The notes beneath the pieces are model-generated. The model was not told the origin of the DNA. It made no database searches and was given only the letters and a program-made list of their open reading frames with translations. This document shows, one piece after another, positions 2,432 to 53,652 of a DNA stretch of 64,000 nt (positions are counted from its first letter, which is position 1; every line of letters begins with the position of its first letter). This DNA comes from Escherichia phage vB_EcoM_G37-3. A program made the position numbers and the translations under genes. The stretch lies in sequence record MK327941.1. One strand, written 5' to 3'.

Positions 2432-2974
2432 TTAATTTTTTCGAATGTATTCAGACCATTCCTTCCCTGTCAGTTCGGTCCCATTCTGGAAACTGAAATA
2501 TTCATACGGCATCGAGTCAAGATAAAACAGGATCATACATCGCGCCATATAATACCAATCACGATTAAAGTAAACTACGTTATCACCATTACCATCAGCA
2601 CCTTTATCATAACCATCGCGGGTACGGGCAACCCATTGAATAGTATCATTTTTCTCACGGATAATAACAGGTTCCCAATATCCAGCACATCCAGCATGAC
2701 CACACGAACAAGTAAGGAAATATTGACCTTTTGCTTTGTTGTCATCCCATTCACGATGGATTGGTTCGATCTCGTGAAACAATGCCAAGCAATCATGATT
2801 ATGCAACACTGGCTTACCATCAATCAATGCATGGAATGTATACAAACGACCAGTAGACAGATAGCTATCCTCACGCTCAACCAGTTCAATAGCAATCTTT
2901 TTAGCTCGTTCTTTGTGTCGTTGTGCTTTACGCTTACGGTTTAATGATTTCATATTCACCCCACACATTATCAA
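2432..2974 (-). CDS. Hypothetical protein (180 aa)
   Basis: Minus-strand ORF in gene chain, start overlaps stop of upstream gene (ATGA). Confidence 0.5.
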   Translation of the reverse strand: MIMCGVNMKSLNRKRKAQRHKERAKKIAIELVEREDSYLSTGRLYTFHALIDGKPVLHNHDCLALFHEIEPIHREWDDNKAKGQYFLTCSCGHAGCAGYWEPVIIREKNDTIQWVARTRDGYDKGADGNGDNVVYFNRDWYYMARCMILFYLDSMPYEYFSFQNGTELTGKEWSEYIRKN

Positions 2975-3510
2975 AGGTCGCGATATAGTACATTATGAAA
3001 ATGAGAACTTGCATTACCAATATTGTAGATAATAAATTCTTCATCCGGCGCTTGCGCTACAAATTGAGTATGAGCAACCGCCACAACCTTAAAAATACGA
3101 TCCGTGATCTTGTGTTTAATTTCTGCCCCTACTTCCATAGGAACATATTCATTTGTTTCTGTTTCAGTCGCAAAACAGCCATCTTCTTCATAAGCACGAA
3201 TAAATCGGTCGCAATCAGTACGCTTAACAAATTCAAGAGTATATAATTCTCGTGAATTGTCGGTATAGACCAATACAGAATTATTATGATAGCGAATCAC
3301 ATACAGGTTATTATCATCGTCAATTACGCAAAAGCTACGGATTCCTTCGCCTTGACTCCAGCAGATATTAACCACCGTTCCTCTAATAAAAAAACTTTCC
3401 TTTAAATTAAAACTAGCCAATGTGCTAGCGTGCATTTTAACAACAACACCATCACCAATTTCCAGTTTACGAAGTTTAACTTCTTTGCTCAGTACACAAA
3501 ACATCATCAT
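2971..3510 (-). CDS. Hypothetical protein (179 aa)
   Basis: ORF starting MMMFCVLSKE with RBS GAGGA upstream and PeSL-type promoter. Confidence 0.5.
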   Translation of the reverse strand: MMMFCVLSKEVKLRKLEIGDGVVVKMHASTLASFNLKESFFIRGTVVNICWSQGEGIRSFCVIDDDNNLYVIRYHNNSVLVYTDNSRELYTLEFVKRTDCDRFIRAYEEDGCFATETETNEYVPMEVGAEIKHKITDRIFKVVAVAHTQFVAQAPDEEFIIYNIGNASSHFHNVLYRDL

Positions 3511-21327: not shown

Positions 21328-21921
21328 TTAAACGTATTCAGCGACAACATTGTGTTTAAAATTACCACTTCTTTTTGGATTTGGATTTTTCAATCGACTA
21401 TGTATTAAATTTTTGTTATATCCGGTTGCTTTAGACGCTTCTCCAATACTTTGATAAACAACACCATCAACACGAATCGGACGAGACTTATTAAACAGTT
21501 TATTCAATCCGGTATCATATGCATGGTTTTGGTTTTCTTGTCTTGTTGCGATCTCAAGATTCCAAACACAATTACAAGATTTTACCCCACTTTTATGATT
21601 AATTTCAAGCCCTTCACAATCACCTATAAAGTGTTCAGCGACTAGTCTATGAATATAGCGATATTTCTTAGTTTCCCCGTCATGCAAGCATACATTATAA
21701 TAACCATCACCAGCGCGTTTAGGTCGGAGTAGTTTACCTTTAACACGTTTTATAGTAGGGAACTCACCAAATTGATTTCGCTGGATAAAAGGAATCTCTC
21801 GGTCAAGTGAACGGATTCGACCATAGTTAGATACTTGATAAAACCCCCCATAGCCCTTAATCTGCTTCCATATCTCGGGGATTTCAACACCATCAATAAC
21901 AACAAGTTTAAGTTCTTCCAT
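21328..21921 (-). CDS. HNH homing endonuclease (Mob-like)
   Basis: YQVSNYGRIRS (NUMOD4-like) and HRLVAEHFIGDCEGLEINHKSGVKSCNCVWNLE (HNH) motifs. Confidence 0.75.
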   Translation of the reverse strand: MEELKLVVIDGVEIPEIWKQIKGYGGFYQVSNYGRIRSLDREIPFIQRNQFGEFPTIKRVKGKLLRPKRAGDGYYNVCLHDGETKKYRYIHRLVAEHFIGDCEGLEINHKSGVKSCNCVWNLEIATRQENQNHAYDTGLNKLFNKSRPIRVDGVVYQSIGEASKATGYNKNLIHSRLKNPNPKRSGNFKHNVVAEYV

Positions 21922-29862: not shown

Positions 29863-30519
29863 TTAAATGTTCGCGAGAATCGCGCTTTCAAATTCTTCTA
29901 ATGTACCATTATTTATGATAATGGTTTCACCGTCAATAGGCAAAATTCCTTTTTCGGTGGAGTGAGTCGATACAATACCAGTATCACGATGAATATGCAA
30001 CACCTTAGCACCCATAGCACGCATGAGAGCAATTTCAATAGGCTGACGCACATCAACCACTACAAAATACCCTTCTTCATTTTTGCGCTTCATAAACTCA
30101 TTCACGAAGAGATTACACCAATAAAGCGGATTGATCAAGTTAACCATTATATCAGTACCGAGAGTGGTTAACATGAGACGAATAGACCAGACGTTATTAT
30201 GTTTTTCGCCGATCTCATTAACGACCTTGTAAATCTCAGCCAGACGATCACAAGTAAAGGAACTACCGCCATACTTCGAATCTAGCATAAGCAGACACTG
30301 AATAAACCACTTATGCGCGGTATAGGTATCAATACCTAGATCGGCTTCTCTGTCACGCCCCAACCCGTCAAAGTCAAGATAAGTCAGACCTAAGTCTGGT
30401 TGACATTCGCACAATATTTCTTTGATCGGTGCTGCCAGTTGATAACTATGTCCATCAATGATTAACGCGGCAGTGTCTTTTCCTACTCGCTTTTTACCAC
30501 AAAGTGCAATCAATTTCAT
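29863..30519 (-). CDS. 1: Deoxynucleoside monophosphate kinase (gene 1)
   Basis: MKLIALCGKKRVGKDT P-loop and overall collinearity with T4 gp1. Confidence 0.85.
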   Translation of the reverse strand: MKLIALCGKKRVGKDTAALIIDGHSYQLAAPIKEILCECQPDLGLTYLDFDGLGRDREADLGIDTYTAHKWFIQCLLMLDSKYGGSSFTCDRLAEIYKVVNEIGEKHNNVWSIRLMLTTLGTDIMVNLINPLYWCNLFVNEFMKRKNEEGYFVVVDVRQPIEIALMRAMGAKVLHIHRDTGIVSTHSTEKGILPIDGETIIINNGTLEEFESAILANI

Positions 30520-30534
30520 TATATAAGCCTCTTA

Positions 30535-31125
30535 TTACTTTCTAAAAGCAGGGTGCATAGCTTTAATACCTTCCACCCTCTGACGATCCGCCGCCTGAAT
30601 TGCTGGGCGAGGAACGATCAGTTGACCATCACGTTCAATGCTCATTGTTTTAAAGGGAAGAATTGCAGTACACACCAGAGATTCATGCATATCATCGGTG
30701 TATGTTAACTCAAGTTCCCCCAATTGTGAACACCAACAACCATAAAAGTTAAAAGTGCACACAATGTTACGTCGTTCGTTGTCCATCATGTGAACTTGAA
30801 CGGCTTCCGGCATTGAATCCTTCCACGCAGTGGAGTTACCGTTATTGTAGTCTACTATAGAAAGCATCCATGTGTAAAGGTTTAGATAGCTTTCCAAATG
30901 CTCATCGACAATAAACCGGACTACCAACGGGTCAAACTCCACATGACTAGACGGATAATCAGCGACCGCCAAACCATATTGTCCAGCAACTTGCTTAGTC
31001 GGTGGAATGGTTATAGCCGGAAGTGTAACACCTTGAGCATTTAAAGTAAAGCCTTTTGTTAGTTGTCCATCTGGAATATTGATCTGCCAGTTGCTGGGGT
31101 TAGCATAGTTAAAGAGATTAGACAT
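30535..31125 (-). CDS. 3: Tail completion / sheath stabiliser protein gp3 (by synteny)
   Basis: ORF between gene 1 and gene 2 homologs; assignment mainly positional. Confidence 0.55.
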   Translation of the reverse strand: MSNLFNYANPSNWQINIPDGQLTKGFTLNAQGVTLPAITIPPTKQVAGQYGLAVADYPSSHVEFDPLVVRFIVDEHLESYLNLYTWMLSIVDYNNGNSTAWKDSMPEAVQVHMMDNERRNIVCTFNFYGCWCSQLGELELTYTDDMHESLVCTAILPFKTMSIERDGQLIVPRPAIQAADRQRVEGIKAMHPAFRK

Positions 31126-31315
31126 TACTGATTCCTCAAATGAAAATATTTATTAACAATTGTCGCTTTGCGACGTGCCGGAGGCATTGACTACTTTTTA
31201 ACCGAAACAAATTTTCTATTATTCTAAAGATCTTTCTTCGTTTTGGTTATGTTTTAACCAATAACTATATTTTTATACAGTAATAAATAAAACGGGTACT
31301 ATACGAGGACTTCTT

Positions 31316-31570
31316 ATGACAGAAGACATTTTGTTAAAACTCTATGATCGTCTGGATAACGAATTAGCAACATTGCGGGGTGAAGTTCTCTATTTGTCTA
31401 AATGCAATACAGATCTGCTTAAGCAGATTGCAGAAAGGGATGATCAAATAAAATCCCTTTCAGGTGCATTACGTGATCGCGACAAGGCATTAGAGATTTT
31501 ACAGCGTGTTACCAATAAGGAAGAATTAAAAGACTTCTTACATGGTTATGCTCATGCTATCGATCTATAA
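31316..31570 (+). CDS. Hypothetical coiled-coil protein (84 aa), plus-strand gene inside minus-strand block
   Basis: ATG with RBS GAGGA; ends at bidirectional hairpin. Confidence 0.4.
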   Translation: MTEDILLKLYDRLDNELATLRGEVLYLSKCNTDLLKQIAERDDQIKSLSGALRDRDKALEILQRVTNKEELKDFLHGYAHAIDL

Positions 31571-31574
31571 TAAA

Positions 31575-31600
31575 AAAGCCCGTCATTGACGGGCTTAATC
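31575..31600. terminator. Bidirectional hairpin terminator
   Basis: AGCCCGTCA-TTGACGGGCT hairpin; T-run on minus strand side. Confidence 0.5.
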
Positions 31601-32743
31601 TTAACTATTGATCATATCAATGACGTTTTGTAGCTCTGATATGGATAGCGTTTCTGTATATCCATCGGGCATATCTTCTTTACTAACATAGAAACCTTTA
31701 TACTTTTTCTTTATTGCACATTCCATAGAAAGAGCATCATCACCGTTATCGTATTTTTTATAAAATGTCAACTCATGACGAAATATAGATTTTGAAGATT
31801 GGTTTTGTATTCTTTTTATTAATCTGTTGTTGGTTATACCAAATTTTATAGCAACCGCAACATCTTCTTTGTATAAAGTTTGTACATAAATGTATGCAGG
31901 TTTATTCCTCTTAAATCCATGATTGCTACACATAGGGCAACCGCTATTTTTTGATACGTAGTCTCCTAAGTTTGGCGTAAATTCATGTCCGCTACTACAA
32001 CGCATTACCAATTTTGTTTTTAGCATTCCTCTATACTCACCGCCAACAAAATCAACAAATGTATCACCTTTATCAATCGCCTTATCTGTTATTTCCTTTA
32101 CTACTTGCTCAGTTGACTTCTTGTTTTTACCTGAACATAGTTTACATCTAGATCCATTAACTAAAAACGAGTGACCGGATGCAGTATATTCATGTCCATT
32201 AGGGCATTTAACTAAGATATTTCTTTCATAAAAATCTTTATAATCAGACACATAGTCAATGACTTCGTGGTCTTTTTGGTTATTCCTCATCTCTGTTAGC
32301 AACTCTTCGCTATTCCAGCGTTTACCCTTAACGCAGAGACAACCATGACCTTGATAAAGATATATAAATTTCTTAGTAAAGTTTTTGTTGCAATCAGGAC
32401 AATGCATTAGTAATTCTGTCATTTGACCTGTATATCCTTTAGGAATATCGATCAATGTGTATTTTCCGCATATTGTCTTTAATGCATCATCTATTCTTTC
32501 TTTGGTCCAGCGTAAGCGACCAGTGCATTCATGACATTTTACACCCAGTCTAAGAGTATCTAAACTAAATATAGTTGACGTATGTCCTTTATCACATTTT
32601 AACTTAAATCTAGTATCCTTTGCGTTGGTGTATTCTCCGACTAGACCATACCATTCATAACCACATGGGATATGTTCTTTTACCTTCTCTAGATATACAC
32701 CGAACGGTCTAGGAACTGAATTAGGTTTTCTTTCTTTAGTCAT
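31601..32743 (-). CDS. Multi zinc-ribbon protein with C-terminal GIY-YIG-like (T5orf172-type) domain; putative homing-endonuclease-like selfish gene
   Basis: At least six C-x2-C ... GH pairs; C-terminal AYIYVQ...IKFGITNN...GYTETLSIS resembles the T5orf172 motif pattern; inserted between gene 3 and gene 2. Confidence 0.55.
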   Translation of the reverse strand: MTKERKPNSVPRPFGVYLEKVKEHIPCGYEWYGLVGEYTNAKDTRFKLKCDKGHTSTIFSLDTLRLGVKCHECTGRLRWTKERIDDALKTICGKYTLIDIPKGYTGQMTELLMHCPDCNKNFTKKFIYLYQGHGCLCVKGKRWNSEELLTEMRNNQKDHEVIDYVSDYKDFYERNILVKCPNGHEYTASGHSFLVNGSRCKLCSGKNKKSTEQVVKEITDKAIDKGDTFVDFVGGEYRGMLKTKLVMRCSSGHEFTPNLGDYVSKNSGCPMCSNHGFKRNKPAYIYVQTLYKEDVAVAIKFGITNNRLIKRIQNQSSKSIFRHELTFYKKYDNGDDALSMECAIKKKYKGFYVSKEDMPDGYTETLSISELQNVIDMINS

Positions 32744-32761
32744 ATTTTTATATCCTGTAAA

Positions 32762-32785
32762 TTAAAGCGCCGTCACCAGCGGCGC
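32762..32785. other. Hairpin between gene 2 and inserted gene
   Basis: Inverted repeat AGCGCCG-TCACCAG-CGGCGCT. Confidence 0.4.
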
Positions 32786-32799
32786 TATTTTTATAATCA

Positions 32800-33621
32800 T
32801 TAAAACAATTTCCACACCTTACGAGCATCATATTTCTTGTCTTTGCTCATAAACTGGTAGGTCGGAAGATACACAACCGTGCTCCAATCTTTTGGTGCGA
32901 TCTCAATCAGTTTTGTTTGGATGTGTCCAGGCAAATATGCTTTGATCATGTGGTCTGCGCCTCTCATACCTTTAACATCACTCCATTTAATTTTTAAACG
33001 AGTTTTATTACTAAGAGTAGGTGTACTCGCGTATTGTCGCAACAACGCTTCTAAGAACTGCTGGCGAGCTTTAGGTGGCGCATAGTGCAAGTTCAAACCT
33101 AGCATAATCTCGTTTCCCGCTTTAGATGTACCAAATCCTAGACAGATAATCAAGGGGTATCGGTCAAAGAATGGCAAAGAATCCCGATATTTTGGGTTAT
33201 ACGCATAAGTATAGATCCGTCCCACTTGTGGTTTTACTACCTGATGACCTTTTACACCATCCTTGATGGTCTTCATAAACCACTCCTGTGATTTTTCTTT
33301 AGGACGACTCTTTGATACAGCACGCATAGACGCACGAAAATCATTAATCATCATCATTGCGCGTTGCTGCTTATTGAGACCCTTTGCGCCTTTCCCTTTT
33401 AGTTTTTCAACTTCTATTGCTGTTTTAATTTCGCTGGCATAACGAGACATACTTTTAGTGAAAGTCGCATAGGCTATTCCCTTAGAATCTGCAAATGCTT
33501 TAGCTGTCATTCCTTTGGCTTTTGCTTTCGCAAATTCTACACCCAATTCGACCCACTGTTTAGACTTTCGTTTTTTGGGAGACGGCTTTTCGTCTTCTGT
33601 GATTATTTCAAATACGCTCAT
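32800..33621 (-). CDS. 2: DNA end protector protein gp2
   Basis: 273-aa basic protein, syntenic with T4 gp2 (between genes 3 and 4). Confidence 0.7.
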   Translation of the reverse strand: MSVFEIITEDEKPSPKKRKSKQWVELGVEFAKAKAKGMTAKAFADSKGIAYATFTKSMSRYASEIKTAIEVEKLKGKGAKGLNKQQRAMMMINDFRASMRAVSKSRPKEKSQEWFMKTIKDGVKGHQVVKPQVGRIYTYAYNPKYRDSLPFFDRYPLIICLGFGTSKAGNEIMLGLNLHYAPPKARQQFLEALLRQYASTPTLSNKTRLKIKWSDVKGMRGADHMIKAYLPGHIQTKLIEIAPKDWSTVVYLPTYQFMSKDKKYDARKVWKLF

Positions 33622-33632
33622 AATATTATCCT

Positions 33633-34106
33633 CTATTTGTTAAGCCCTTTAAAGCCAAACACTTTCTTTAATGCATGTTCGGTGATGATCTTAAACTCCA
33701 TGTTATGCTTTTGGCATAATTTCACGGCAGCTAACCATTTTTCAGTATTTTTTGTGTATGTCCATACTTCATGCATATATCGTTGCTTTGTCTTCGCGGT
33801 CATTCTTTTTGGCTTTTCCGGTGGCCTTGTCTCTTTAGCTGGTTTAACTTCCCATAAATGCTCCTTGCCATCATCAAACTTAACGTAAAAATCCATAAAG
33901 TATCTGTGTCTTTTCCCGTCTGTTGATGACTCATAAGGAATTACTACGGTCTCAGATCCCCATTTTGAAACTCTAGGATTGCGGTCTAGCCACTGCATGA
34001 TCCATCTTTCCCAGCTTGAACGGTATGTGATCTTACGTATATCCCCTTTATACTTTTCCTTATTCTCAGGAACATACTTGCCCTTATAAGTGTTAGATCC
34101 TCCCAT
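33633..34106 (-). CDS. 4: Head completion protein gp4
   Basis: Aligns with T4 gp4 (GKYVP, YRSSWERW, VVIPY, DGKRHRYFMDFY, FKIITEH). Confidence 0.8.
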   Translation of the reverse strand: MGGSNTYKGKYVPENKEKYKGDIRKITYRSSWERWIMQWLDRNPRVSKWGSETVVIPYESSTDGKRHRYFMDFYVKFDDGKEHLWEVKPAKETRPPEKPKRMTAKTKQRYMHEVWTYTKNTEKWLAAVKLCQKHNMEFKIITEHALKKVFGFKGLNK

Positions 34107-34110
34107 TTTA

Positions 34111-34157
34111 GCACCCTTTATTATAAATACATAATACTATTTATCAATTGAGGGTGC
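34111..34157 (+). promoter_or_regulatory. T4-type late promoter TATAAATA (34122-34129) flanked by inverted repeat, upstream of gene 53
   Basis: Exact TATAAATA; arms TAGCACCCT / AGGGTGCTA. Confidence 0.6.
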
Positions 34158-34161
34158 TAAA

Positions 34162-34716
34162 ATGCTCTTTTCTTTCTTCCCTGCCATTGAATACAACGGC
34201 AAGATGATTACTGACATTGTGCGCAATTACCGCGCCTATTTCAACGCAATAATTTCTGATTATAACATACAAACATATTACATTCAAGGTAGTCCACGAC
34301 CGGAACAAGTTGCATATGAAGTATACGGAAACCAACAACTTTATTGGATCTTGCTGATGCTTAATGACGTATACGATCCGTTCCATGACTGGATCACCGA
34401 TCAAGAGACAGCATATGAATCAGCCGAACAGCGATATGCAAATGTAGGAGGAAATCAAGTATTATACCACGTTGATATTGACGGAAACAAGTATTGGAAT
34501 CTTACCGAATATCCGAAAGGATCAAGCAATTGGTATGATAAAGGGGATATTCATCATCGTCATTTGCAGTTTCAAGGTGCACTATCGGCAGTAGACACAC
34601 TGGAAGATGCGATCCTCCGTAATGAGGAACGACGCAAGATCAAGATCATAGATCCTACACAAATTAAACAATTTATTAACGCATTCATTCGAGAAATGGA
34701 AAAGGCTGATGTGTAA
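34162..34716 (+). CDS. 53: Baseplate wedge protein gp53
   Basis: Aligns with T4 gp53 (YYIQGSPRPE, QLYWILLMLND, WYDKGD, GALSAVDT). Confidence 0.8.
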   Translation: MLFSFFPAIEYNGKMITDIVRNYRAYFNAIISDYNIQTYYIQGSPRPEQVAYEVYGNQQLYWILLMLNDVYDPFHDWITDQETAYESAEQRYANVGGNQVLYHVDIDGNKYWNLTEYPKGSSNWYDKGDIHHRHLQFQGALSAVDTLEDAILRNEERRKIKIIDPTQIKQFINAFIREMEKADV

Positions 34717-34727
34717 GGTGATTAATT

Positions 34728-36527
34728 ATGCTAATGTTTAATAACTCCGTTAAATGGTTTACCGGAATTGTAGAAAACAGGGAAGACCCATTAATGCTGG
34801 GTCGTGTTCAGGTTAGGATTCATGGTATACATCCCTCGCTATCCGCACACGGTGACATTCAAGGTCTTCCAACCGAAGATCTATTATGGATTACGCCAGT
34901 ACAAGATATTACAAGCGCGGCGATCTCCGGTATAGGTCAAAGCCCTACTGGTATTGTTGAAGGTTCAATGGTATTTGGTTTGGCTTTAGATGAACGTTAT
35001 TTAAACTGCGTTATTCTTGGTACTATTGCCGGACAATATACAGAGAAACCACTCACTACAGAGGGTTTTTGTGACCCTTCTGGTGCATATCCTCGTTATA
35101 TTGGTAATGATGTTAATATTCTTGCTCGTGGCGGTATTAACCCAGAAACCGGACAAACAACAAAACCTGATAGTGTCTATATTCGAGATGAAAACACTGG
35201 AGTTGCAGTAAATCCAGACGACGAGCCATTAGACCAAATTCCGGTTGATGATAATCCTGATTTTACAATAGAAAAAATGCTGCGGGGCGATGAGGGATAT
35301 CGCGAGAAATGGTATCTTGATTCAGAAGGATATCCGACAATAGGCATCGGGCATTTGATCATTTATAAGAAAACCAGTGATCTTGGTATTATCAATAATG
35401 AACTTTCTAAGCTGGTAGGGCGTGAAGTTACAAACGGAAGACTTACCGCCGAAGAAGTTAGTAAAGTATTTGCCGACGATATAGAAAAGACTCGTCGTGA
35501 TATGCGCAAACATCCACGAATTGCACCTGTCTATAATAAATGTAATGCCTCTCGTCGCATGGCATTAGAAAATATGGCGTTTCAAATGGGTGTTGGTGGA
35601 TTGGGTAAATTTAAGAATAGTCTTGCTGCGATGTTAGCGGAAGAATGGAAACAAGCCTATGATGGATTACGTCAATCGGTATGGGCTAACCAAACTCCAG
35701 GACGCTCCAGCCGTGTTTCTAAAATTATTTTAACTGGTAACTTAGAATCATATGGCGTAATTGCTCCAAAGAAAGAGGAATCAATTTCTGATGATCCGCG
35801 AGAACGTTTGAGAAATGCCCGTATTGCTGCCTATAAGACGCAGAGAGCAGAAGAAGACCCAGAAGCACCGTTTACCCCACAAGACACACGAATCATGTTT
35901 AAAGAGCCTAAGAGTTCGTATTCTGCAAGGTATCCATATAACCATGTGTACGAGTCAGAGAGCGGTCATATTATCGAGATTGATGATACTCCTTCTCATG
36001 AGCGATATCATCGTAAACATCCTTCTGGTACATTTGAAGAAACCAGACCGGACGGAACGAGGGTAGAAAAGATTGAAGGCGATGATTATCTGATCGTTAA
36101 ACAAGGCCGGAAAGTAAACGTCAAGGGTAATTTGCAAGTTGTTGTTGAAGGTGACGCGCAAGTTTATTATATGGGTAATGTGATGCAAACCGTTGATGGT
36201 AACGTCACTGAATTTATTCGTGGCAATGTTAATCAGACCGTTGAAGGTACTGCTAACATGCATGTTGTTGGTGATGTTATCGCACAGCTTGACGCTAATT
36301 TGACGGCTAACGTCAAGGGTAATGCTGAATTAATGATCGAGGGTAACACTACCGAAACAATTAAAGGTAACTATGATTTAACCGTTGAGGGTAATTTTAA
36401 TATGACAGTCAATGGCACTAAATCAGATCAGGTTAATGGTGACTGGTCCCGTAATTGTGGTGCAAGCGTTAAAGATATTGCATCTGGTACAGTTAAAATT
36501 GATGGTAGCCGTATTGATCTTGGGTGA
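34728..36527 (+). CDS. 5: Baseplate hub + tail lysozyme gp5 (cell-puncturing device)
   Basis: OB-fold N-terminus, lysozyme domain GYPTIGIGHLI..., C-terminal beta-helix VxGxxxxx repeats. Confidence 0.95.
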   Translation: MLMFNNSVKWFTGIVENREDPLMLGRVQVRIHGIHPSLSAHGDIQGLPTEDLLWITPVQDITSAAISGIGQSPTGIVEGSMVFGLALDERYLNCVILGTIAGQYTEKPLTTEGFCDPSGAYPRYIGNDVNILARGGINPETGQTTKPDSVYIRDENTGVAVNPDDEPLDQIPVDDNPDFTIEKMLRGDEGYREKWYLDSEGYPTIGIGHLIIYKKTSDLGIINNELSKLVGREVTNGRLTAEEVSKVFADDIEKTRRDMRKHPRIAPVYNKCNASRRMALENMAFQMGVGGLGKFKNSLAAMLAEEWKQAYDGLRQSVWANQTPGRSSRVSKIILTGNLESYGVIAPKKEESISDDPRERLRNARIAAYKTQRAEEDPEAPFTPQDTRIMFKEPKSSYSARYPYNHVYESESGHIIEIDDTPSHERYHRKHPSGTFEETRPDGTRVEKIEGDDYLIVKQGRKVNVKGNLQVVVEGDAQVYYMGNVMQTVDGNVTEFIRGNVNQTVEGTANMHVVGDVIAQLDANLTANVKGNAELMIEGNTTETIKGNYDLTVEGNFNMTVNGTKSDQVNGDWSRNCGASVKDIASGTVKIDGSRIDLG

Positions 36528-36535
36528 GGTAACTA

Positions 36536-37105
36536 ATGGTTGAAATTCTTCCGATGAGTTCAAAATTGGAGGATATCAGCGAGCGAGAAATCTTTGAGGT
36601 GGTGTTCTCTTATAAAGCAACGCCACCGGATGCAAATACCACATACACGATTAAAGAGTTTAAGATCAGCGAGTATCGCCCTAATAAGGGCGTTACCGTT
36701 GAAGAAACTAAAATATCTGGTGAGTATCGGGATAGTTTTTCGCTTGGCGCGGATTCTCTTAAATATATAACGAAAGATAGAATTAAAAAATCTGCCGGAA
36801 GTTTTGATGATTTACCAGATCCAACTACCGCAGATCTATATTATTTTAACGCTCCTACACGTCTACAGGAGGTTTATACTTATAAAGTAACCCTAACCTA
36901 TATCCAATCTGTTTCAGAGTCTTCTGGTGGTTCTGGTGAAGGAAATAGTGGTGGTTCCAGTAGCCGAGAGGGTGCTGGTGAAACTAATCCGCCTCCGGTA
37001 GTAACCGAGCACACAATAGAGAAAGTTTATACTCAAACCGTTTTTGGAAATTGGGATGTGTGGAGTAAACAGTTAAGAGATTATGTTAGAAGAAGTGAGG
37101 GATAA
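36536..37105 (+). CDS. Hypothetical protein (gene 5.1 position)
   Basis: 189-aa ORF with Gly/Ser-rich linker; positional analog of T4 5.1. Confidence 0.45.
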   Translation: MVEILPMSSKLEDISEREIFEVVFSYKATPPDANTTYTIKEFKISEYRPNKGVTVEETKISGEYRDSFSLGADSLKYITKDRIKKSAGSFDDLPDPTTADLYYFNAPTRLQEVYTYKVTLTYIQSVSESSGGSGEGNSGGSSSREGAGETNPPPVVTEHTIEKVYTQTVFGNWDVWSKQLRDYVRRSEG

Positions 37106-37106
37106 T

Positions 37107-37646
37107 ATGATTGAAGTAATTCATTACACCAAAGAAGATGAAATTTTATATAATAGACTACATGAACTATTTTATGAAGTTGACGGAAAGGTTTATAGAA
37201 GGTTCTCTCGTGGACGTTCTAAAGCCGGAAGTCTAGTTGGTGGATTGAAGATAAATCCATGTGGATATAGATATTGGAGACTTGCTGTTGATGGTAAAGA
37301 GTTTCAGAGGTCTCATGTTGTTTATCATATGCATCACGGACACACTCCAAAAAAACCACTACAAATAGATCATATTAACACAAACTCCCTTGACGACCGA
37401 GTTAGCAATTTAAGACCAGTAACAGTTACTCAACAAATGTACAACCAAAATAAACAATCCGATTGCACATCTTCATATATTGGTGTTAATTGGAATAAAA
37501 ATTCCAAAAAATGGGAAGCTAGAATTAGAGCTAATGGAAAACGAATCCGTTTAGGTCTATTTGATAATGAAATTGACGCTGCGATTGCCTATAACACCGC
37601 TGCATTATCTAGAGATTCAAAAGTTAACAAATTAAACGATGTATGA
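37107..37646 (+). CDS. HNH homing endonuclease with AP2-like DNA-binding domain
   Basis: HVVYHMHHGHTPKKPLQIDHINTNSLDDRVSNLR (HNH) and YIGVNWNKNSKKWEARIRANGKRIRLGLF (AP2-like); ATG at 37107 with RBS GAGGGA. Confidence 0.75.
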   Translation: MIEVIHYTKEDEILYNRLHELFYEVDGKVYRRFSRGRSKAGSLVGGLKINPCGYRYWRLAVDGKEFQRSHVVYHMHHGHTPKKPLQIDHINTNSLDDRVSNLRPVTVTQQMYNQNKQSDCTSSYIGVNWNKNSKKWEARIRANGKRIRLGLFDNEIDAAIAYNTAALSRDSKVNKLNDV

Positions 37647-37661
37647 GGATGGGGGTGTTTA

Positions 37662-37955
37662 ATGGCTGGATTATCCTACGATAAAGCTAAAACTACAGGG
37701 CACGGAAACTACCCACCTACTGTAATTAATGCAACTCAATCGAAGGTATTTGTTGAGGGTATCCCTGTATTAGTAGAAGGAGACCCAATTACACCACACA
37801 CAAAAACAACAAAGCCTTATGATACACACGGGGGAACTACGGTCGCCAGTACCCCGAAAGTCTTTGTTACCGGAAAGAAAGCAATTCAAATGGCAGATCG
37901 TATTAGCTGTGGCGATACCGTCGCTATGGCATCACCGAAGGTTTATATCAAATGA
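37662..37955 (+). CDS. 5.4: PAAR-repeat spike tip protein gp5.4
   Basis: 97-aa protein directly upstream of gene 6, as T4 gp5.4. Confidence 0.75.
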
Positions 37956-39601
37956 CAAAGCAAAAGATTACACAAATTCCTGATATTTTTAATGCTGCTA
38001 CATTCGATGAAATTAAAAGCGCATTAACAGACTGGATGAGAAACCAGGAAGAATTTAAAGATTTTGATTTTAATGGTGCTGGTATTAACGTATTGATGGA
38101 CTTGCTCGCATATAATACCCTTTATATTCAGCAATTCGCCAACGCCGCGCTATATGAATCTTTTATCAGAACGGCAATTAAGCGTAGTTCAGTTGTTCAA
38201 GCCGCGCAAGATTTAGGATATTTGCCAGCAAGTAAAACTAGTGCATCAACTACAATTATGTTGCATGTATCACATCCACGAAATCCGGCAAGTATTCGAA
38301 TCCCACGAGGAACTAAATTTATTGCAAGTGTGGACCGCCAGACGTCTTATCCGTTTGTTACTACAGAAGACGTTGTGAGCGTTTTAGGTTCAAATGGTTT
38401 ATATACTCCTATGCTTAAAGTCGCACAAGGTCGTATTGTTCGTACAGAAATGTTATTTGATCCGAAGAAACAAATTCTGATCCGCGATCCTGATATTGAC
38501 CGCGCTCAGGTTAAATTGTGGGTGGATGGGGCTGAATGGAAAGACTGGACGCGAGAAAGTATTGTTAATGCAACTGGCGCCAGTAATATTTTCTATATGC
38601 GTGAAACCGTAGACGGTCATACAGAAATCTTCTTTGGTGAAGGTGAATCAACTTTATCTGCTGCTGGCGGTGCACTGGAAGCAAATTATATTGGTGGACT
38701 TAAGCCGTCAACTGGTGCTAATATTGTTATTGAATATATTAGCACTAAAGGCGCGGAAGCAAACGGATCTGTCAATTTCACATACGCGGATACCCTTGCA
38801 TCTATCTCTATTGTTAAAATTATTGAGAATCCGACAAATGATCGTGATTATGTCGGTGCAGATGGTGGTGGTGATCCTGAATCAATCGAACGTATTCGTG
38901 AACTTGCTCCGGTAATGCGTGAATCTCAGCGTCGTTGTGTTACTGCTTCCGACTATGAGGCTTTTGTATCTAGCCGTTTTGGTAGTATTGTTCAGGCGGT
39001 ACAATGTTTCACCGATCGAGAAAAACCAGGTTATGCTTTTGTTGCTGTTAAGCCTAAATCTGGTTTGCGATTGACAACTATTCAAAAAGAAGATATGCGG
39101 GATTATCTGGCAAAATATAACCTTGCCCCTATCACACCGAGCATCATTGACCCTAACTATCTGTATATTAAACAGAATATTAAAGTTTCCTATTCAATCA
39201 ATGACTTATCAGAATCAGAGCAGTGGTTGCGCGGTGCGGTTATTGATCAGATTGATGCATATTATACCGACGAAGTGGAAATTTTTAACCAGACCTTTAG
39301 TAAGTCTAAAATGCTTGCGCGTATTGACAAAGCTGATGTATCTGTGATAGGTTCTAGTGCAGAAATAGAGATGGTTCGAGAGATCGACAACTTCTATAAA
39401 GCACCTATGGCGGGAATCAAGTTTTTAAACCAGTATAAGAGCGGAATCAAGTCTAGTTCGTTCAACTTCGAAAAGGACGGTAAACAATACCCGATCCATT
39501 ATGTAAGTACAGAAATGAACAAAGAATCCGGTTTAGCTAAATTGCTGGTTGGACCTTTCCCTGTTGATTCTACAATCGCTTTACCGCACTTCCGGCACTG
39601 A
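37952..39601 (+). CDS. 6: Baseplate wedge protein gp6, N-terminal frame (interrupted by frameshift)
   Basis: 549-aa ORF at gene 6 position; terminates prematurely at 39599-39601. Confidence 0.75.
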
Positions 39602-39854
39602 TTTTGATAAAGAGGTTATTGACGGTGCGGACCTATACTTTGAGGTTGGAGAGGTTCAGCATTATGACGACCTTATTTCATGGGATCTGGGTAAACTGAA
39701 TATCAATAGCGATCGCTTTACTGGTTCATATATTGAGTTGACAGCTAAACCGATTGCTGATAACATCTTTACTAAAGACGGTTCTTTGATCGTGTTTGAA
39801 AACGATCTCCGTCCTCAGTACACAACTATTAGTCTGGAGGCAATTGCTCAATGA
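39537..39854 (+). CDS. 6: gp6 C-terminal segment in +1 frame (ends with ATGA overlap onto gene 7)
   Basis: Open frame from 39537; stop TGA overlaps gene 7 ATG at 39851. Confidence 0.55.
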   Translation, partial: LNCWLDLSLLILQSLYRTSGTDFDKEVIDGADLYFEVGEVQHYDDLISWDLGKLNINSDRFTGSYIELTAKPIADNIFTKDGSLIVFENDLRPQYTTISLEAIAQ

Positions 39855-42800
39855 TTAAAGCGCCTAGTGTAACTAGCTTGACAATAGAAAAATTGTCTGC
39901 TAATCAGGCGTATATCACATGGGATGACGTAGGCGAAAACTTCTTTTATTTTGTGGAGTTAGCCGAAACCAGAACACGAGACGGGGAGATCATCCCCGTC
40001 GATGAGTTAAGCTGGGTAAACCTGGGATATACTGCCGAACAAAACTGGTTTGAGGATAAAAACCTTTTTCCAGAATATTATTACAAGTTTCGTGTAGCAG
40101 TAGCCGCAGAAGGATTTGAACAAAGTAAATGGGTTGAGACAGAAGAGTTTCAGACATTTAAAACAAACGCATATAATTTTTCTATGATGCGAGAGTTCAA
40201 CCTTGCAAACGAGTTTATAAAGGAAAAATTTACATACGATAATCGAGAGTATGTCAAGTTTAATACCGACCTTATTCAAGCATCATTGATGAAGGAAGAT
40301 TTTGTCTTTAGTCCTGAATATGCAAACATGACAAATATCTCAAACTACATTGTAGTTGATGAGAACTTTCATGAAATACAGGACCACATAGAAAAAGTTT
40401 GTACTGATATAAACCACACTATGTTAGCGGAAATGAACGGTGTTTTGTACCTTTTCGAACGGTTCCAGCCGATCGTGAAAGTGTCAAATGATAAAGGCCA
40501 ATCATGGAAGGCATACAAGGCTTTTAATGACCGTGTAGGCAATCCGGTTTCCCGTACATGCGTTTATCAGTCTAAAACCACTACTTACGTTTTAGGATAT
40601 GACCGAATCTTTTACGGACGACAAGCGAGCGATACTCGATGGAGCGCGGACGATGTTCGATTTAGTGATGATACGATCACTTTTGCAAAGGTCGGTGACG
40701 AAAACGATTTAGGCTTTGACGTTGAGGTCTTTGGTGTATTTTCCAGATTAACAGGTGATACCACAAAATACGCCGAAGCTATGGCGTGTAGTGATGACTA
40801 TTTGTGGGTTGGTGCTAAAGATGTTATTCGCCGGATTCGTCTTAAGAATACTCCTGTTGATACCGTACAGGGTTCGCCTACGTTTGGAGAAAAAATATTC
40901 GATCCTGATGTTATCCGAGTAACAGGAAATGATAAAGCTGTCATTCAGAAAATGGATGTGGTCGACGGTAAATTGCTTGTATTTGTTACGGGTGAAGTTA
41001 AACAGCGTTATCAAGATCCAACTAAACCAGAAAACGTTGTTCCGTCAGATGATGCGGGTGTATACTTAATAGGGAGTGATGGTCTGTCTTTTCAGAGAGT
41101 ATTTGGCAACACTCCGCAGGAAAGGGAATATATTCAGCATGGGTTCAGTAATATGTCAACCAATGGTGATGAGGTGTTCATAAGCCATTATAATCATCAC
41201 TTCGAAAGCATTTTACCTGATCCAGAAACTGCCGAGAAATATGAATTGGGAGAAGCTGTAAAATATTCTCATGAGCCAACTTATCTAACTGATAAGAAAA
41301 TACATCAAACTACTTTCAGAGCAAGTTATGATGATTTGCGTATTTGGGAGTTAGGACCGCAAGCGTATTATAATGAGGCCGATTATACATGGATGCGTCG
41401 AAACGGTGTCCGTGTGTGGATCACAAATGATAATCGCCCGTTGGTTGTTTATCCAGAGGTTATCTATACTCAAGAAGTTGATACATCTGGCATTCTTGAC
41501 CAAAATAGGATCAACCGAGAAGTTTATGATAAAGGGACCGTGACCTGTTATCTTAACAATGTTAAATTTGAAGGATTCAAACAATATGCATCCGGTGTAA
41601 TGTTCCATAAAAACACAGGAGAGATCATAGGATTCTATCAATTTAATTATCGTGTTCGTGATCAGGTTGGTGTATATTGGAAACCTACAAATGTAGCATT
41701 TGTTGCTGAATTGCAAAATCAGGTTCGAGAGGTTCCCTGGGTTCCGGTTCACTACGATCGAGAGCAAGATCCAGATTTGCGGCCTTTACTGAATAAGATG
41801 ACCCCTGATAGCTTTTTACTTGAGAACGAAAATTTCAGAAAATTCTCTGAATATTATCTGCAATTCTTAAGCGATGGTTCAGGAACATATTATAATAAAC
41901 TAAAAAATCTGATTAAAAACAAATATCCACGCGAGAAAGATGCATATGAGTATCTTTGGTCAGAGATGAACAAACGAAACATCTATGCAGATAAAAACAA
42001 GCGAGATGCGGTAGTAAGATTCTTTGAATCCCGCAAATCAGATTTTTATTCCACTAAGGGCGTGGAGGCTTCTTATAAGTTCTTGTTTAAGTTACTTTAT
42101 AATGAAGATGTGGAAATTGAGGTTGAATCACAAGCCGGACTAGAGTATGATATTGTTGTTAGTTCAACGAACATTGACGAGGATATCGTAGGTCGCACGA
42201 TTTATACTCCAACCGGACGGGCTAACGTGACGTATCTTGAAAGGGAATATGAAGGTGGTCGCCTACGCTGGCGAGTAACCATTCATAACCTGATCGGGCG
42301 GTTCGAAGAAGGTCAAGTGATCAAATCAGAGAAAACAGCGTTTGAAGGGATGATCCTTGTTGGTGTACGTGGTAAAGAGTTGTTGAGTAGTTCAATCGAC
42401 TATATCAACCGCTCACGAAGCCAATACACCATGAAGATTAAAAGTGCATTGCCAGTTTCGCGCTATGCAAATGATGTAATGCGATTCGTTCATCCTGTCG
42501 GCTTTGGGTTTATCGGTGTTACCCTGCTTACGATGTTCATTAACAGCGGGTTGAGCATGAAGCACACCGAGACGATAATTCAATCTCTGAAAAATTATAA
42601 GTTTGACAGCGGATTGCCTAGCGTGTATCCTGATCGGGTGGCAGACCTTGACGTTGACGGAAACATTAAGAAAGACCCGCTTACCGGAAAAGCATTATAT
42701 TTGACTTCACCTTTAATCGGTGATGAATTTCCGGTTCCTCCTGAATATGATCAGGAGAACAGCGAATTGTTCCACGGACTTAAAGCAAGCGAACGAAGAT

Positions 42801-53007: not shown

Positions 53008-53652
53008 ATGAAAAGACGAAACACATTTTTACGATTGTATGTTACCGAATTTTTATCATCCTCCGGCAAAAAGATATATGGAGGGAAACGACACTCTCCA
53101 TATAAAAATTTCGAATCAGACCCGTATGTCGGGTCTGGAGTGATTATAAAACGAGCAATAGAAAAATATGGAAAGGATTGTGTAATTTCCATATCTTGGT
53201 CAAAACCATTTGAAACACCAGAATTATTGAAAGAGGCCGAAGAATTATTAATAGACGAACTCAAAGACAAATATTCCTATTTTTGCGCTAATTTGGTTAA
53301 AGGTGGACAAGGTGGTTCATATTATGACAAAGACAAAAATCCACGCGTAGGAAAAAAGAGAACTAAAGAAAGTCGAAATAAAATGTCAGAGGCAGCAAAA
53401 AATAGAAAATGGACAGAAGAAGGGTTGAAACGTAGAATCGAAGCAACAATTAAAATGAAAAAAACAGCAAAAGTCCCAGATTTTTCTGGCGACAAAAATC
53501 CAGCCGCAAAGAAAATACAGGTAGGAGATCTTATTTTTAATACTGGAAAAGAATGCGCGAAATATTTTAATATATGTCAAGCAACGGTCATAGATAGGTG
53601 CAAAAATCAACGTCCTAAATGGAAAGAATGGAGATATTATGATTCAATATAA
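53008..53652 (+). CDS. GIY-YIG homing endonuclease (Seg-like)
   Basis: [24 protein letters not shown] (GIY-x10-YIG) and C-terminal basic DNA-binding region; ATG at 53008 with RBS GGGGGA. Confidence 0.7.

What the first reader, a model, noticed from the sequence alone, without database searches (positions are those of the whole stretch)
37107..37646. HNH-AP2 homing endonuclease inserted between gene 5.1 and gene 5.4
The ORF carries an HNH motif (HHGHTPKKPLQIDHINTNSLDDRVSNLR) followed by an AP2-like DNA-binding domain (YIGVNWNKNSKKWEARIRANGKRIRLGLF). It is embedded in the cell-puncturing device operon. With the HNH at 21328, the GIY-YIG gene at 53008 and the T5orf172-like gene at 31601, the window holds at least four endonuclease-type selfish genes.
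Basis: partly seen in the sequence, partly recalled or inferred. Interest (0 to 1): 0.45.

Follow-up and report, generated by a model that had tools for sequence, protein, structure and literature searches.

The report
Free-standing HNH-AP2 homing endonuclease gene
This is an ordinary selfish "homing endonuclease" gene, of a type long known in RB49-like coliphages, sitting as an optional 560-base insert between two tail-spike genes; the same gene is already annotated in several public phage genomes.

Summary
ORF 37107..37646 (+, 179 aa) has an I-HmuI-type HNH nuclease domain (Pfam HNH_3, E 6e-10) followed by an AP2 DNA-binding domain (E 9e-8, 0.6 bit below Pfam's cut-off). A confident AlphaFold model (pLDDT 92) confirms both folds; its best PDB matches are I-HmuI and plant AP2 domains.

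The window is a Krischvirus (RB49-like T4-type coliphage). The gene is an exact 560-bp insertion (37087..37646) at the gene 5.1 / gene 5.4 junction. It is present in 5 of about 50 sequenced relatives and cleanly absent from the rest. It has no promoter of its own and rides the late baseplate transcript.

The same junction holds a different HNH-AP2 gene in six other Krischviruses, and in T4 it holds the GIY-YIG gene segC, so it is a recurrent landing site.

One oddity: the Asn that binds the catalytic metal in I-HmuI (N96) is Gln here, against Asn in 144 of 147 family cores. The copies nevertheless look selectively constrained (pN/pS 0.15).

Cleavage and homing remain inferred. HNH-AP2 homing genes in RB49 and JSE were described in 2004-2010, and this gene is annotated in GenBank. 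It is already known and of low interest.

The parts
37107..37646 (+). HNH-AP2 endonuclease ORF (179 aa, stop included). The N-terminal helix and beta region (residues 1-67) is shared with Krischvirus paralogues. The HNH beta-beta-alpha-metal core spans about residues 70-113 (D88, H89, N101, Q110, N113). The AP2 domain spans about residues 123-168.
37087..37646 (+). The whole 560-bp insertion relative to the empty site of RB49-type phages. It consists of a 20-nt leader plus the ORF. G+C is 0.34-0.37 against about 0.40-0.43 in the flanks.
   Evidence: Alignment with 8 empty-site phages; the locus length difference is 3801 - 3241 = 560; composition
37087..37106 (+). 20-nt leader brought by the cassette (TAGAAGAAGTGAGGGATAAT). 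It supplies a new 3' end and stop codon for gene 5.1, changing ...RDYVHRGV* to ...RDYVRRSEG*. It also supplies the GAGG ribosome-binding site of the endonuclease gene.
37647..37661 (+). The displaced original 3' end of gene 5.1 (GGATGGGGGTGTTTA; RB49 has ACATAGGGGTGTTTA). It is now an untranslated spacer that still provides the ribosome-binding site of gene 5.4.
37064..37073 (+). Two-allele patch in gene 5.1, 14-23 nt left of the insertion point. It reads AGTAAACAGT here and GCGCAGCAAC in RB49 (7 of 10 bases differ; SKQ against AQQ in the protein). All five carriers of this gene have the first allele, but so do 8 empty-site phages. It may be part of the target or immunity site, or simply a linked polymorphism.
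36536..37105 (+). Gene 5.1, the upstream flanking gene. It is intact apart from its last few codons.
37662..37955 (+). Gene 5.4, the PAAR spike-tip protein and downstream flanking gene. It is intact.
34122..34129 (+). TATAAATA, the T4-type late-promoter consensus, upstream of gene 53. It is the likely start of the transcript that carries 53-5-5.1-HNH-5.4-6. This is a consensus match only.

Best explanation
The ORF is a free-standing (not intron- or intein-borne) homing endonuclease gene of the HNH-AP2 class, in a Krischvirus (RB49-like) genome.

Shown:
- It is a minimal, promoter-less 560-bp cassette.
- It sits exactly at the gene 5.1 / gene 5.4 junction of the late baseplate operon.
- It carries its own ribosome-binding site and a substitute 3' end for gene 5.1.
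- It leaves the old gene 5.1 end in place as the ribosome-binding site for gene 5.4, so neither neighbour is damaged.

Inferred, by analogy with I-HmuI, T4 MobA/MobE and the Seg enzymes:
- Late in a mixed infection the protein binds a long asymmetric site near the 5.1/5.4 junction of a co-infecting phage that lacks the gene. The AP2 domain and the N-terminal beta region would do the binding.
- The HNH beta-beta-alpha-metal centre, with D88/H89 as metal ligand and general base, nicks or cuts that DNA.
- Recombination-dependent repair from the carrier genome then copies the cassette, and a short stretch of flank, into the empty site.
- The carrier is protected because the insertion splits the site, and/or because of the AGTAAACAGT allele 14-23 nt to the left.
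For: Fold and family:
- HNH_3 above Pfam's cut-off, and AP2 at E 9e-8.
- PHROG 99 at E 2e-46.
- The family profile hits I-HmuI 1u3e at E 7.6e-9 and WRI1 AP2 at E 1e-17.
- The AF2 model has pLDDT 92.2 with a beta-beta-alpha element (E86-89, E102-105, H107-112) and a three-strand-plus-helix AP2 unit.
- The Foldseek top hits are 1u3e and AP2 domains.
- D88, H89, N101 and N113 are invariant or near-invariant in the family.

Optional and mobile:
- The gene is present at 98.3% nucleotide identity or more in only G5211, MIZ4, MIZ5, KFS-EC and Makalu_003.
- The empty site is clean in RB49, Phi1, JSE and about 40 others.
- A single ICTV species (Krischvirus gec3s) includes an empty site (E26), this gene (Makalu_003) and the alternative gene (JEP8, GEC-3S).
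- SNPs more than 50 bp from the insert do not track presence of the gene.
- G+C dips across the insert.

Function retained:
- The ORF is intact in all five copies.
- There are 9 synonymous and 5 non-synonymous variable sites, giving pN/pS 0.15 and binomial p = 6e-4.

Context:
- Paralogues at 40-44% identity occupy other intergenic sites in Krischviruses: nrdA|nrdB, 59|32, dam|nrdC and 5.4|6.
- There is no group I intron or other Rfam family in the region.
- HNH-AP2 is a recognised class of homing endonuclease genes in RB49 and JSE (PMC1524935; PMC2993671 Table 5).
- Promoter-less free-standing cassettes, and nicking by MobA and MobE, are described for T4 (PMC2988022).
Against: - No cleavage, target site or biased inheritance has been demonstrated for this protein or any close relative. 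The nearest neighbour outside its own lineage is only 42-44% identical.
- The residue equivalent to the I-HmuI metal ligand N96 is Gln (Q110). The family has Asn in 144 of 147 cores.
- The near-invariant His-Arg pair upstream of the core, and N97, are also altered.
- The AGTAAACAGT allele is not exclusive to carriers, because 8 empty-site phages also have it. It therefore cannot be read as a co-conversion tract.
- Flanks are about 97-98% identical in all Krischviruses. Ordinary homologous recombination could spread the cassette without any endonuclease action.
Confidence: 0.8

Rival explanations
1. It is a catalytically dead or decaying endonuclease gene. On this reading it is a relic that no longer homes, persists only through linkage, and spreads only through ordinary recombination among co-infecting Krischviruses.
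For: - The metal-ligand Asn is replaced by Gln (Q110), and there are departures at three other near-invariant positions.
- The gene is rare, in 5 of about 50 distinct phages.
- Flanks are nearly identical between phages, so passive recombination is easy.
Against: - The ORF is full length in all five copies, and substitutions are mostly synonymous (pN/pS 0.15, p = 6e-4).
- Gln keeps an amide oxygen that could still bind the metal.
- The same Q occurs independently in another family member, P0058.
- D88, H89 and N101 are intact.
Confidence: 0.12
2. It is a domesticated DNA-binding protein. The AP2 domain and N-terminal region would be kept for sequence-specific binding, for example to regulate late genes or to exclude competitors without cutting, and nuclease chemistry would be dispensable.
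For: - The sequence is under purifying selection despite an altered metal site.
- It is co-transcribed with late structural genes.
- AP2 and CapR-type domains of homing endonucleases are known to be co-opted as regulators (PMC10448857 discussion).
Against: - The gene is absent from about 90% of close relatives that have identical baseplate operons, so it serves no operon function.
- The general base and the first metal ligand (D88-H89) are strictly kept.
- The architecture is identical to paralogues with a canonical active site at other sites.
Confidence: 0.05
3. It is an HNH accessory factor for DNA packaging or another phage-essential nuclease step, not a selfish element.
For: Some phage HNH proteins work with terminase (PMC5304195 abstract; GVE2-like group in PMC12724721).
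Against: - Those proteins belong to a different HNH group, sit next to the terminase or portal genes, and are present in every member of the phage group (PMC12724721).
- This gene belongs to the I-HmuI/HNH_3 group, lies between baseplate genes, and is dispensable in most relatives.
Confidence: 0.01

Closest known systems
HNH-AP2 homing endonuclease genes of T4-related phages (RB49 ORF040c, two in JSE, RB43, RB16; class defined by Magnani, Sjolander & Hake 2004, cited in PMC1524935 and PMC2993671 Table 5)
   Same: The architecture is the same (N-terminal HNH_3 nuclease, C-terminal AP2). The phage genus is the same. The lifestyle is the same: free-standing, intergenic and optional. Krischvirus paralogues are 40-44% identical and share the N-terminal EVIHYTEED... 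region.
   Different: This is a distinct lineage, at most 44% identical to any other, with its own insertion site (5.1|5.4). It has Gln instead of the metal-ligand Asn. RB49, Phi1 and JSE themselves have an empty site here.
I-HmuI (SPO1 intron-encoded HNH nicking endonuclease, PDB 1u3e)
   Same: It has the same nuclease family and fold. The profile E-value is 7.6e-9 and it is the top Foldseek hit. DH...NLR...N..N aligns residue for residue. It is the best mechanistic template: a monomer, one metal, and a nick in one strand near the insertion site (PMC3017599).
   Different: I-HmuI is encoded inside a group I intron, and its C-terminal DNA-binding part is a helix-turn-helix module rather than AP2. 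I-HmuI N96 corresponds to Q110 here.
T4 MobE / MobA (free-standing HNH homing endonucleases)
   Same: They are free-standing HNH genes in intergenic regions of a T4-type genome. They are promoter-less cassettes that ride an existing polycistronic message, and they act as nickases (PMC2988022).
   Different: Their C-terminal domains differ (not AP2) and so do their sites (nrd region, 60.1/39). No sequence comparison with MobE or MobA was run here.
T4 segC (GIY-YIG free-standing endonuclease between genes 5.1 and 5.3)
   Same: It occupies the same genomic neighbourhood, directly downstream of gene 5.1 in the baseplate hub cluster. It is also promoter-less (PMC2988022 Table 1 and text).
   Different: It belongs to an unrelated nuclease family (GIY-YIG, a double-strand cutter) and to a different phage genus.
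The 'type B' 246-aa HNH endonuclease of GEC-3S, JEP8, Whisky, G2494, Skers and W115
   Same: It uses the same 5.1/5.4 junction and the same family: HNH_3 at E 1e-7 and a weak AP2 match.
   Different: It is only 31% identical. It is inserted about 25 nt further right, after the first 8 nt of gene 5.4, which are duplicated. It brings a GC hairpin and a late-promoter-like CATAAATA. It is accompanied by a recoded first 62 nt of gene 5.4.

Membership tests
HNH_3 / I-HmuI-like His-Me finger nucleases | Sequence match to the family model above the curated threshold | tested here: met
   Pfam PF13392 scores 39 bits against a cut-off of 24.8, E 6.4e-10. The family profile hits 1u3e at E 7.6e-9.
HNH_3 / I-HmuI-like His-Me finger nucleases | Beta-beta-alpha-metal fold | tested here: met
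   The AF2 model (pLDDT 92.2) has strands 86-89 and 102-105 followed by helix 107-112. The top Foldseek PDB hit is I-HmuI, probability 1.00.
HNH_3 / I-HmuI-like His-Me finger nucleases | Asp-His pair (I-HmuI D74/H75: metal ligand and general base) and the structural Asn of NLR | tested here: met
   D88, H89 and N101-L102-R103 are invariant in 52 of 52 aligned members and align to I-HmuI D74, H75 and N87.
HNH_3 / I-HmuI-like His-Me finger nucleases | Second metal ligand Asn in the helix (I-HmuI N96; named catalytic in PMC12724721) | tested here: not met
   Position 110 is Gln in all five copies of this gene. It is Asn in 50 of 52 aligned members, in 144 of 147 family cores, and in all six comparison sequences (five Krischvirus paralogues and I-HmuI). 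A Gln also occurs in the unrelated member P0058.
HNH_3 / I-HmuI-like His-Me finger nucleases | Metal-dependent nicking or cleavage of DNA | not testable with these tools
   This needs purified protein and substrate.
AP2 DNA-binding domain | Sequence match to Pfam AP2 | tested here: inconclusive
   PF00847 scores 32.7 bits against a cut-off of 33.3, E 9.1e-8. phmmer against PDB hits WRI1 AP2 at E 3.9e-6, and the family profile hits it at E 1e-17. Precomputed Pfam lists PF00847 for the 98%-identical P0001.
AP2 DNA-binding domain | Three-stranded antiparallel sheet packed on one helix | tested here: met
   The model has strands 127-130, 135-142 and 145-152 and helix 155-167. Foldseek matches 1gcc (rmsd 2.0 A over 61 columns, target-normalised TM-score 0.77), 7et4, 7wq5 and 5wx9.
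AP2 DNA-binding domain | Sequence-specific DNA binding | not testable with these tools
Free-standing homing endonuclease gene (intronless homing) | Lies between conserved genes, not inside an intron or intein, and leaves the neighbours functional | tested here: met
   It lies between genes 5.1 and 5.4. Only the last 4 residues of gp5.1 are replaced, and gene 5.4 with its ribosome-binding site is intact. There is no Rfam intron or other RNA family in 34000-40000.
Free-standing homing endonuclease gene (intronless homing) | Presence/absence polymorphism among close relatives, with a precise empty site | tested here: met
   Five carrier phages against about 40 with the empty TAATG junction. All three states occur within one species.
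Free-standing homing endonuclease gene (intronless homing) | Flanking co-conversion tract, or target-site variant that protects the carrier | tested here: inconclusive
   The 10-bp allele AGTAAACAGT (37064-37073) is found in 5 of 5 carriers. It is also found in 8 empty-site phages and in 4 of 6 type B carriers. No other flanking SNP tracks the gene.
Free-standing homing endonuclease gene (intronless homing) | Cleaves the gene-less allele and is over-inherited in mixed infection | not testable with these tools
   This needs phage crosses and cleavage mapping.

The most novel reading that the evidence does not exclude
The 5.1/5.4 junction of Krischviruses may be a contested landing site. Two unrelated-lineage HNH-AP2 genes (type A, this one; type B, in GEC-3S and JEP8) would displace each other there. 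Each would be associated with its own recoded patch of the flanking gene acting as target immunity: the 10-bp patch in gene 5.1 for A, and the recoded first 62 nt of gene 5.4 for B. KFS-EC, which has the type A gene with the type B flank, would be a product of such a replacement. In addition, type A would work with a non-canonical Asp/Gln metal site, possibly changing its metal preference or making it an obligate nickase.
Probability: 0.2. Interest if true: 0.35.

Novelty: already known. Interest (0 to 1): 0.15.

Why it matters
It matters little beyond correct annotation. The gene is an optional selfish element and not part of the cell-puncturing machinery. It should not be counted as a baseplate component, and it marks a likely recombination hot spot when Krischvirus genomes are compared or engineered.

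For specialists in homing endonucleases there are three minor points:
- The 5.1/5.4 junction is used repeatedly: by two HNH-AP2 lineages here and by the GIY-YIG gene segC in T4.
- KFS-EC looks like a chimera of the two lineages' flanks.
- The lineage carries Gln at the metal-ligand position. This could be tested as a natural active-site variant of the I-HmuI family.

Tried and rejected
- Own promoter, terminator or regulatory hairpin. The sigma-70 and terminator scan gave no more hits than shuffled sequence, and nothing sensible around the gene. There is no TATAAATA nearer than 34122. RNA folds around the two junctions are no more stable than shuffles, with z-scores of -0.07 and -0.5. The idea of translational control by a hairpin, as for I-TevI, was therefore dropped.
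- Intron or intein context. There are no Rfam hits in 34000-40000 at E <= 1.
- Other copies in the window. tblastn of the protein against the window finds only itself.
- Closer relatives elsewhere. IMG/VR viral contigs gave nothing above 48% identity over part of the protein. The 5.8-billion protein set gave one 98% cluster, on short Logan contigs, and otherwise nothing above 55%. No donor lineage was identified.
- Reading the 10-bp patch as a co-conversion tract. This was rejected as a firm claim because 8 empty-site phages carry the same allele.
- phiS as an 'empty site with the type B patch'. It turned out to be a generally more diverged allele of its own.
- A single-sequence search against PDB did not reach I-HmuI. 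A family profile was needed.
- The packaging-HNH idea was rejected on family and position.
- The large HMMER representative search and a second structure job were not used, because the answer was already clear.

Full report
**What is there.** On the + strand an ORF runs from ATG 37107 to the TGA at 37644-37646 (179 aa). A GAGG lies 6 nt upstream, and the ORF starts one base after the stop of the preceding gene. An in-frame ATG at 37083 would add 8 residues. However, the Krischvirus paralogues begin at the position equivalent to 37107, and GenBank annotators chose that start. Nothing of note lies on the opposite strand.

**Where the window comes from.** The region 36000-38800 is 99.7% identical to Escherichia phage vB_EcoM_G5211. 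It is 97-98% identical to some 60 other records of the genus Krischvirus, the RB49-like T4-type coliphages of the Straboviridae. The neighbours are:
- gene 53 (34162-34716);
- gp5 hub/lysozyme (34728-36527);
- gp5.1 (36536-37105);
- the PAAR spike-tip protein gp5.4 (37662-37955);
- gp6 (37952-39601).

The window is not G5211 itself. Positions 30500-34200 are 99.6% identical to JSE but only 93% to G5211, so it is a mosaic genome.

**Domains and fold.**
- Pfam gives HNH_3 at E 6.4e-10 (39 bits, cut-off 24.8; residues 70-111).
- Pfam gives AP2 at E 9.1e-8 (32.7 bits, just under the 33.3 cut-off; residues 123-168).
- PHROG 99 'HNH endonuclease' matches at E 2.4e-46 over residues 9-167.
- The single sequence finds the AP2 domain of Arabidopsis WRI1 in the PDB (E 3.9e-6).
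- An AlphaFold2 model built on 52 relatives has mean pLDDT 92.2 and pTM 0.81. It shows a beta-beta-alpha unit (strands 86-89 and 102-105, helix 107-112) and a three-strand-plus-helix unit (127-130, 135-142, 145-152; helix 155-167).
- Foldseek against the PDB ranks I-HmuI first, followed by AP2 domains. 1gcc aligns with rmsd 2.0 A over 61 columns and target-normalised TM-score 0.77.

**Active site.** The profile alignment and a direct alignment put D88-H89 on I-HmuI D74-H75. N101-L102-R103 falls on N87-L88-R89, and N113 on N99. D74, H75 and N96 are the residues named as catalytic for I-HmuI (PMC12724721). The N96 position is Gln (Q110) in this protein and in all four other copies. It is Asn in 50 of 52 aligned relatives, the two exceptions being this protein and its 98% twin. 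It is also Asn in all six comparison sequences (five Krischvirus paralogues and I-HmuI), and in 144 of 147 HNH cores among 122 family proteins. The other non-Asn cores are one independent Gln (P0058...IQQMSN) and one Ser. Two other near-invariant features are also altered: the His-Arg pair before the core, and N97, which is Asp here. I record this as a real departure whose consequence is unknown. Gln retains a carbonyl oxygen that could bind the metal.

**The insertion.** Alignment with eight empty-site phages (RB49, Phi1, JSE, G2248, E26, JK32, 011D4, PTE-Eco09) shows an exact 560-bp insertion, window 37087-37646.
- In empty sites, gene 5.1 ends ...GATTATGT-ACATAGGGGTGTT**TAATG**GCTGG, with its stop overlapping the gene 5.4 start.
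- In the window, GATTATGT is followed by a 20-nt leader (TAGAAGAAGTGAGGGATAAT). The leader closes gene 5.1 with a new tail (RDYVRRSEG* instead of RDYVHRGV*) and carries the ribosome-binding site of the endonuclease gene.
- After the endonuclease stop, the old gene 5.1 end (GGATGGGGGTGTTTA) survives as a spacer, with three substitutions. It still provides the ribosome-binding site of gene 5.4.
- G+C is 0.34-0.37 across the insert against about 0.40-0.43 on either side.

No promoter-like or terminator-like site, and no unusually stable RNA fold, is associated with the cassette. The nearest T4-type late-promoter consensus (TATAAATA) is at 34122, upstream of gene 53. The gene is therefore most likely expressed from the late baseplate transcript. 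Seven promoter-less free-standing endonuclease genes of T4 behave this way (PMC2988022).

**Distribution.** The gene itself, at 98.3% nucleotide identity or more, occurs in only six records representing five phages: G5211, MIZ4, MIZ5, KFS-EC and Makalu_003. It is always at this junction. A junction probe classifies 58 Krischvirus records:
- about 33 records have an empty site with the GCGCAGCAAC allele at 37064-37073;
- 8 phages have an empty site with AGTAAACAGT (ECD7, Makalu_002, kvi, pEJ01, FL20, FL37, FL38, PTE-Eco09);
- 5 phages have this gene, all with AGTAAACAGT;
- 6 phages have a different 246-aa HNH_3 gene, which I call 'type B' (JEP8, GEC-3S, Skers, Whisky, G2494, W115).

Type B is inserted about 25 nt further right, after the first 8 nt of gene 5.4. 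It brings a GC-rich hairpin and CATAAATA. It is accompanied by a recoded first 62 nt of gene 5.4, with 12 synonymous and 2 non-synonymous changes. Whisky has in addition a third HNH-AP2 gene between genes 5.4 and 6, 41% identical to ours. KFS-EC combines our gene with the type B recoded gene 5.4.

Within the single ICTV species Krischvirus gec3s there are empty (E26), type A (Makalu_003) and type B (JEP8, GEC-3S) states. Beyond about 50 bp from the insert, flanking SNPs do not track presence of the gene. The gene has therefore been gained, lost or exchanged recently and repeatedly relative to its background.

**Selection.** The five copies differ at 14 nucleotide sites, 9 synonymous and 5 non-synonymous. 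This gives pN/pS 0.15 and a binomial p of 6e-4 against the 79% of sites that are non-synonymous. The sample is small and not phylogenetically corrected, but it argues against a decaying pseudogene.

**Relatives.** The protein belongs to a very large family: 2382 phage records by tblastn, and 3337 proteins at E <= 1e-8 with the profile, most carrying both PF13392 and PF00847. It is nevertheless an isolated lineage. The next best matches are 40-44% identical Krischvirus paralogues at other intergenic sites: nrdA|nrdB in G2494, 59|32 in E26 and others, and dam|nrdC in GEC-3S and others. Nothing closer was found in IMG/VR.

**Mechanism.** Shown: the domain architecture, the fold, the precise optional insertion, operon embedding without damage to the neighbours, and sequence constraint. 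Inferred from I-HmuI (a monomeric nickase that cuts near its insertion site; PMC3017599) and from T4 free-standing endonucleases (intronless homing, marker exclusion, nicking by MobA and MobE; PMC2988022):
- Late in a mixed infection the protein recognises a long asymmetric site around the empty 5.1/5.4 junction.
- It nicks or cuts that site.
- Recombinational repair then copies the cassette across.

Whether the AGTAAACAGT allele is part of the target, an immunity variant or merely linked cannot be decided from sequence. It is found in 5 of 5 carriers but also in 8 empty sites.

**Comparison with what is known.** HNH-AP2 homing endonuclease genes were defined in 2004 (Magnani et al., cited in PMC1524935, PMC2993671 and PMC10448857). 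They were tabulated for RB49 (one) and JSE (two) in 2006-2010 (PMC1524935; PMC2993671 Table 5). This exact gene is annotated 'putative HNH endonuclease' in G5211, MIZ4 and Makalu_003. In T4 the same neighbourhood (5.1/5.3) holds the GIY-YIG gene segC (PMC2988022 Table 1). The site is thus a recurrent landing pad for unrelated endonuclease families.

**Verdict.** The kind of element, and this gene itself, are already known, so interest is low (0.15). The only non-routine points are the Gln at the metal-ligand position and the apparent competition of two HNH-AP2 lineages for one junction.

Noticed in passing
window 31601..32743 (-), with flanks 30500-34200: A 379-aa endonuclease gene (PHROG 681, E 2e-81; Pfam CapR plus treble-clef finger, with only a weak T5orf172 match at E 0.008). 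It is present in only 4 of 63 Krischvirus records (JSE twice, AV108, PTE-Eco09). This stretch is 99.6% identical to JSE but about 93% to G5211, whereas 36000-38800 is 99.7% G5211. The window is therefore a mosaic, with a nuclease gene at an exchange boundary.
   Followed up: partly
window 21328..21921 (-): A second HNH gene with a different architecture: NUMOD4 (E 4e-17) plus HNH_3 (E 2.5e-10) plus a weak I-TevI-type DNA-binding match. It is not related to the 37107 gene at the sequence level (no tblastn hit).
   Followed up: partly
Pfam gives only a weak I-TevI DNA-binding-domain hit (E 3e-4), and no GIY-YIG domain at E <= 0.01.
   Followed up: partly
window 37064..37073: A sharply bounded two-allele patch in gene 5.1: AGTAAACAGT against GCGCAGCAAC, with 7 of 10 bases differing in otherwise 97-98% identical DNA. 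It lies 14-23 nt from the insertion point. All five carriers of the gene have the first allele, as do 8 empty-site phages and 4 of 6 type B carriers.
   Followed up: yes
L003 (JEP8) 1604-2410; L002 (Whisky) 1604-2410: A different 246-aa HNH_3 gene ('type B', 31% identical) occupies almost the same junction in six Krischviruses. It is inserted after a duplicated ATGGCTGG of gene 5.4. It carries a GC hairpin (GGCGGG...CCCGCC) and CATAAATA, and it is linked to a recoded first 62 nt of gene 5.4 (12 synonymous and 2 non-synonymous changes).
   Followed up: partly
L006 (KFS-EC) about 2140-2230: KFS-EC carries the window-type endonuclease gene, followed directly by the type B style recoded start of gene 5.4. 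This looks like a chimera of the two cassettes' flanks.
   Followed up: partly
L002 (Whisky) 2708-3262: Whisky has a third HNH-AP2 gene (184 aa, 41% identical to the window's) between genes 5.4 and 6. It is unique to that record in the phage collection. Whisky therefore has two endonuclease genes flanking the 97-aa PAAR gene.
   Followed up: partly
window 33633..34106 (-): The gp4 head-completion protein (PHROG 218, E 7e-61) also matches Pfam 'TnsA-like endonuclease N-terminal' at E 5.6e-21. It is a conserved structural gene and not a mobile element.
   Followed up: no
P0058 (family member from a 38-kb contig): An unrelated member of the HNH-AP2 family also has Gln at the I-HmuI N96 position (DHINGIKDDNRIVNLREANRIQQMSN). 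The substitution has therefore arisen at least twice.
   Followed up: no
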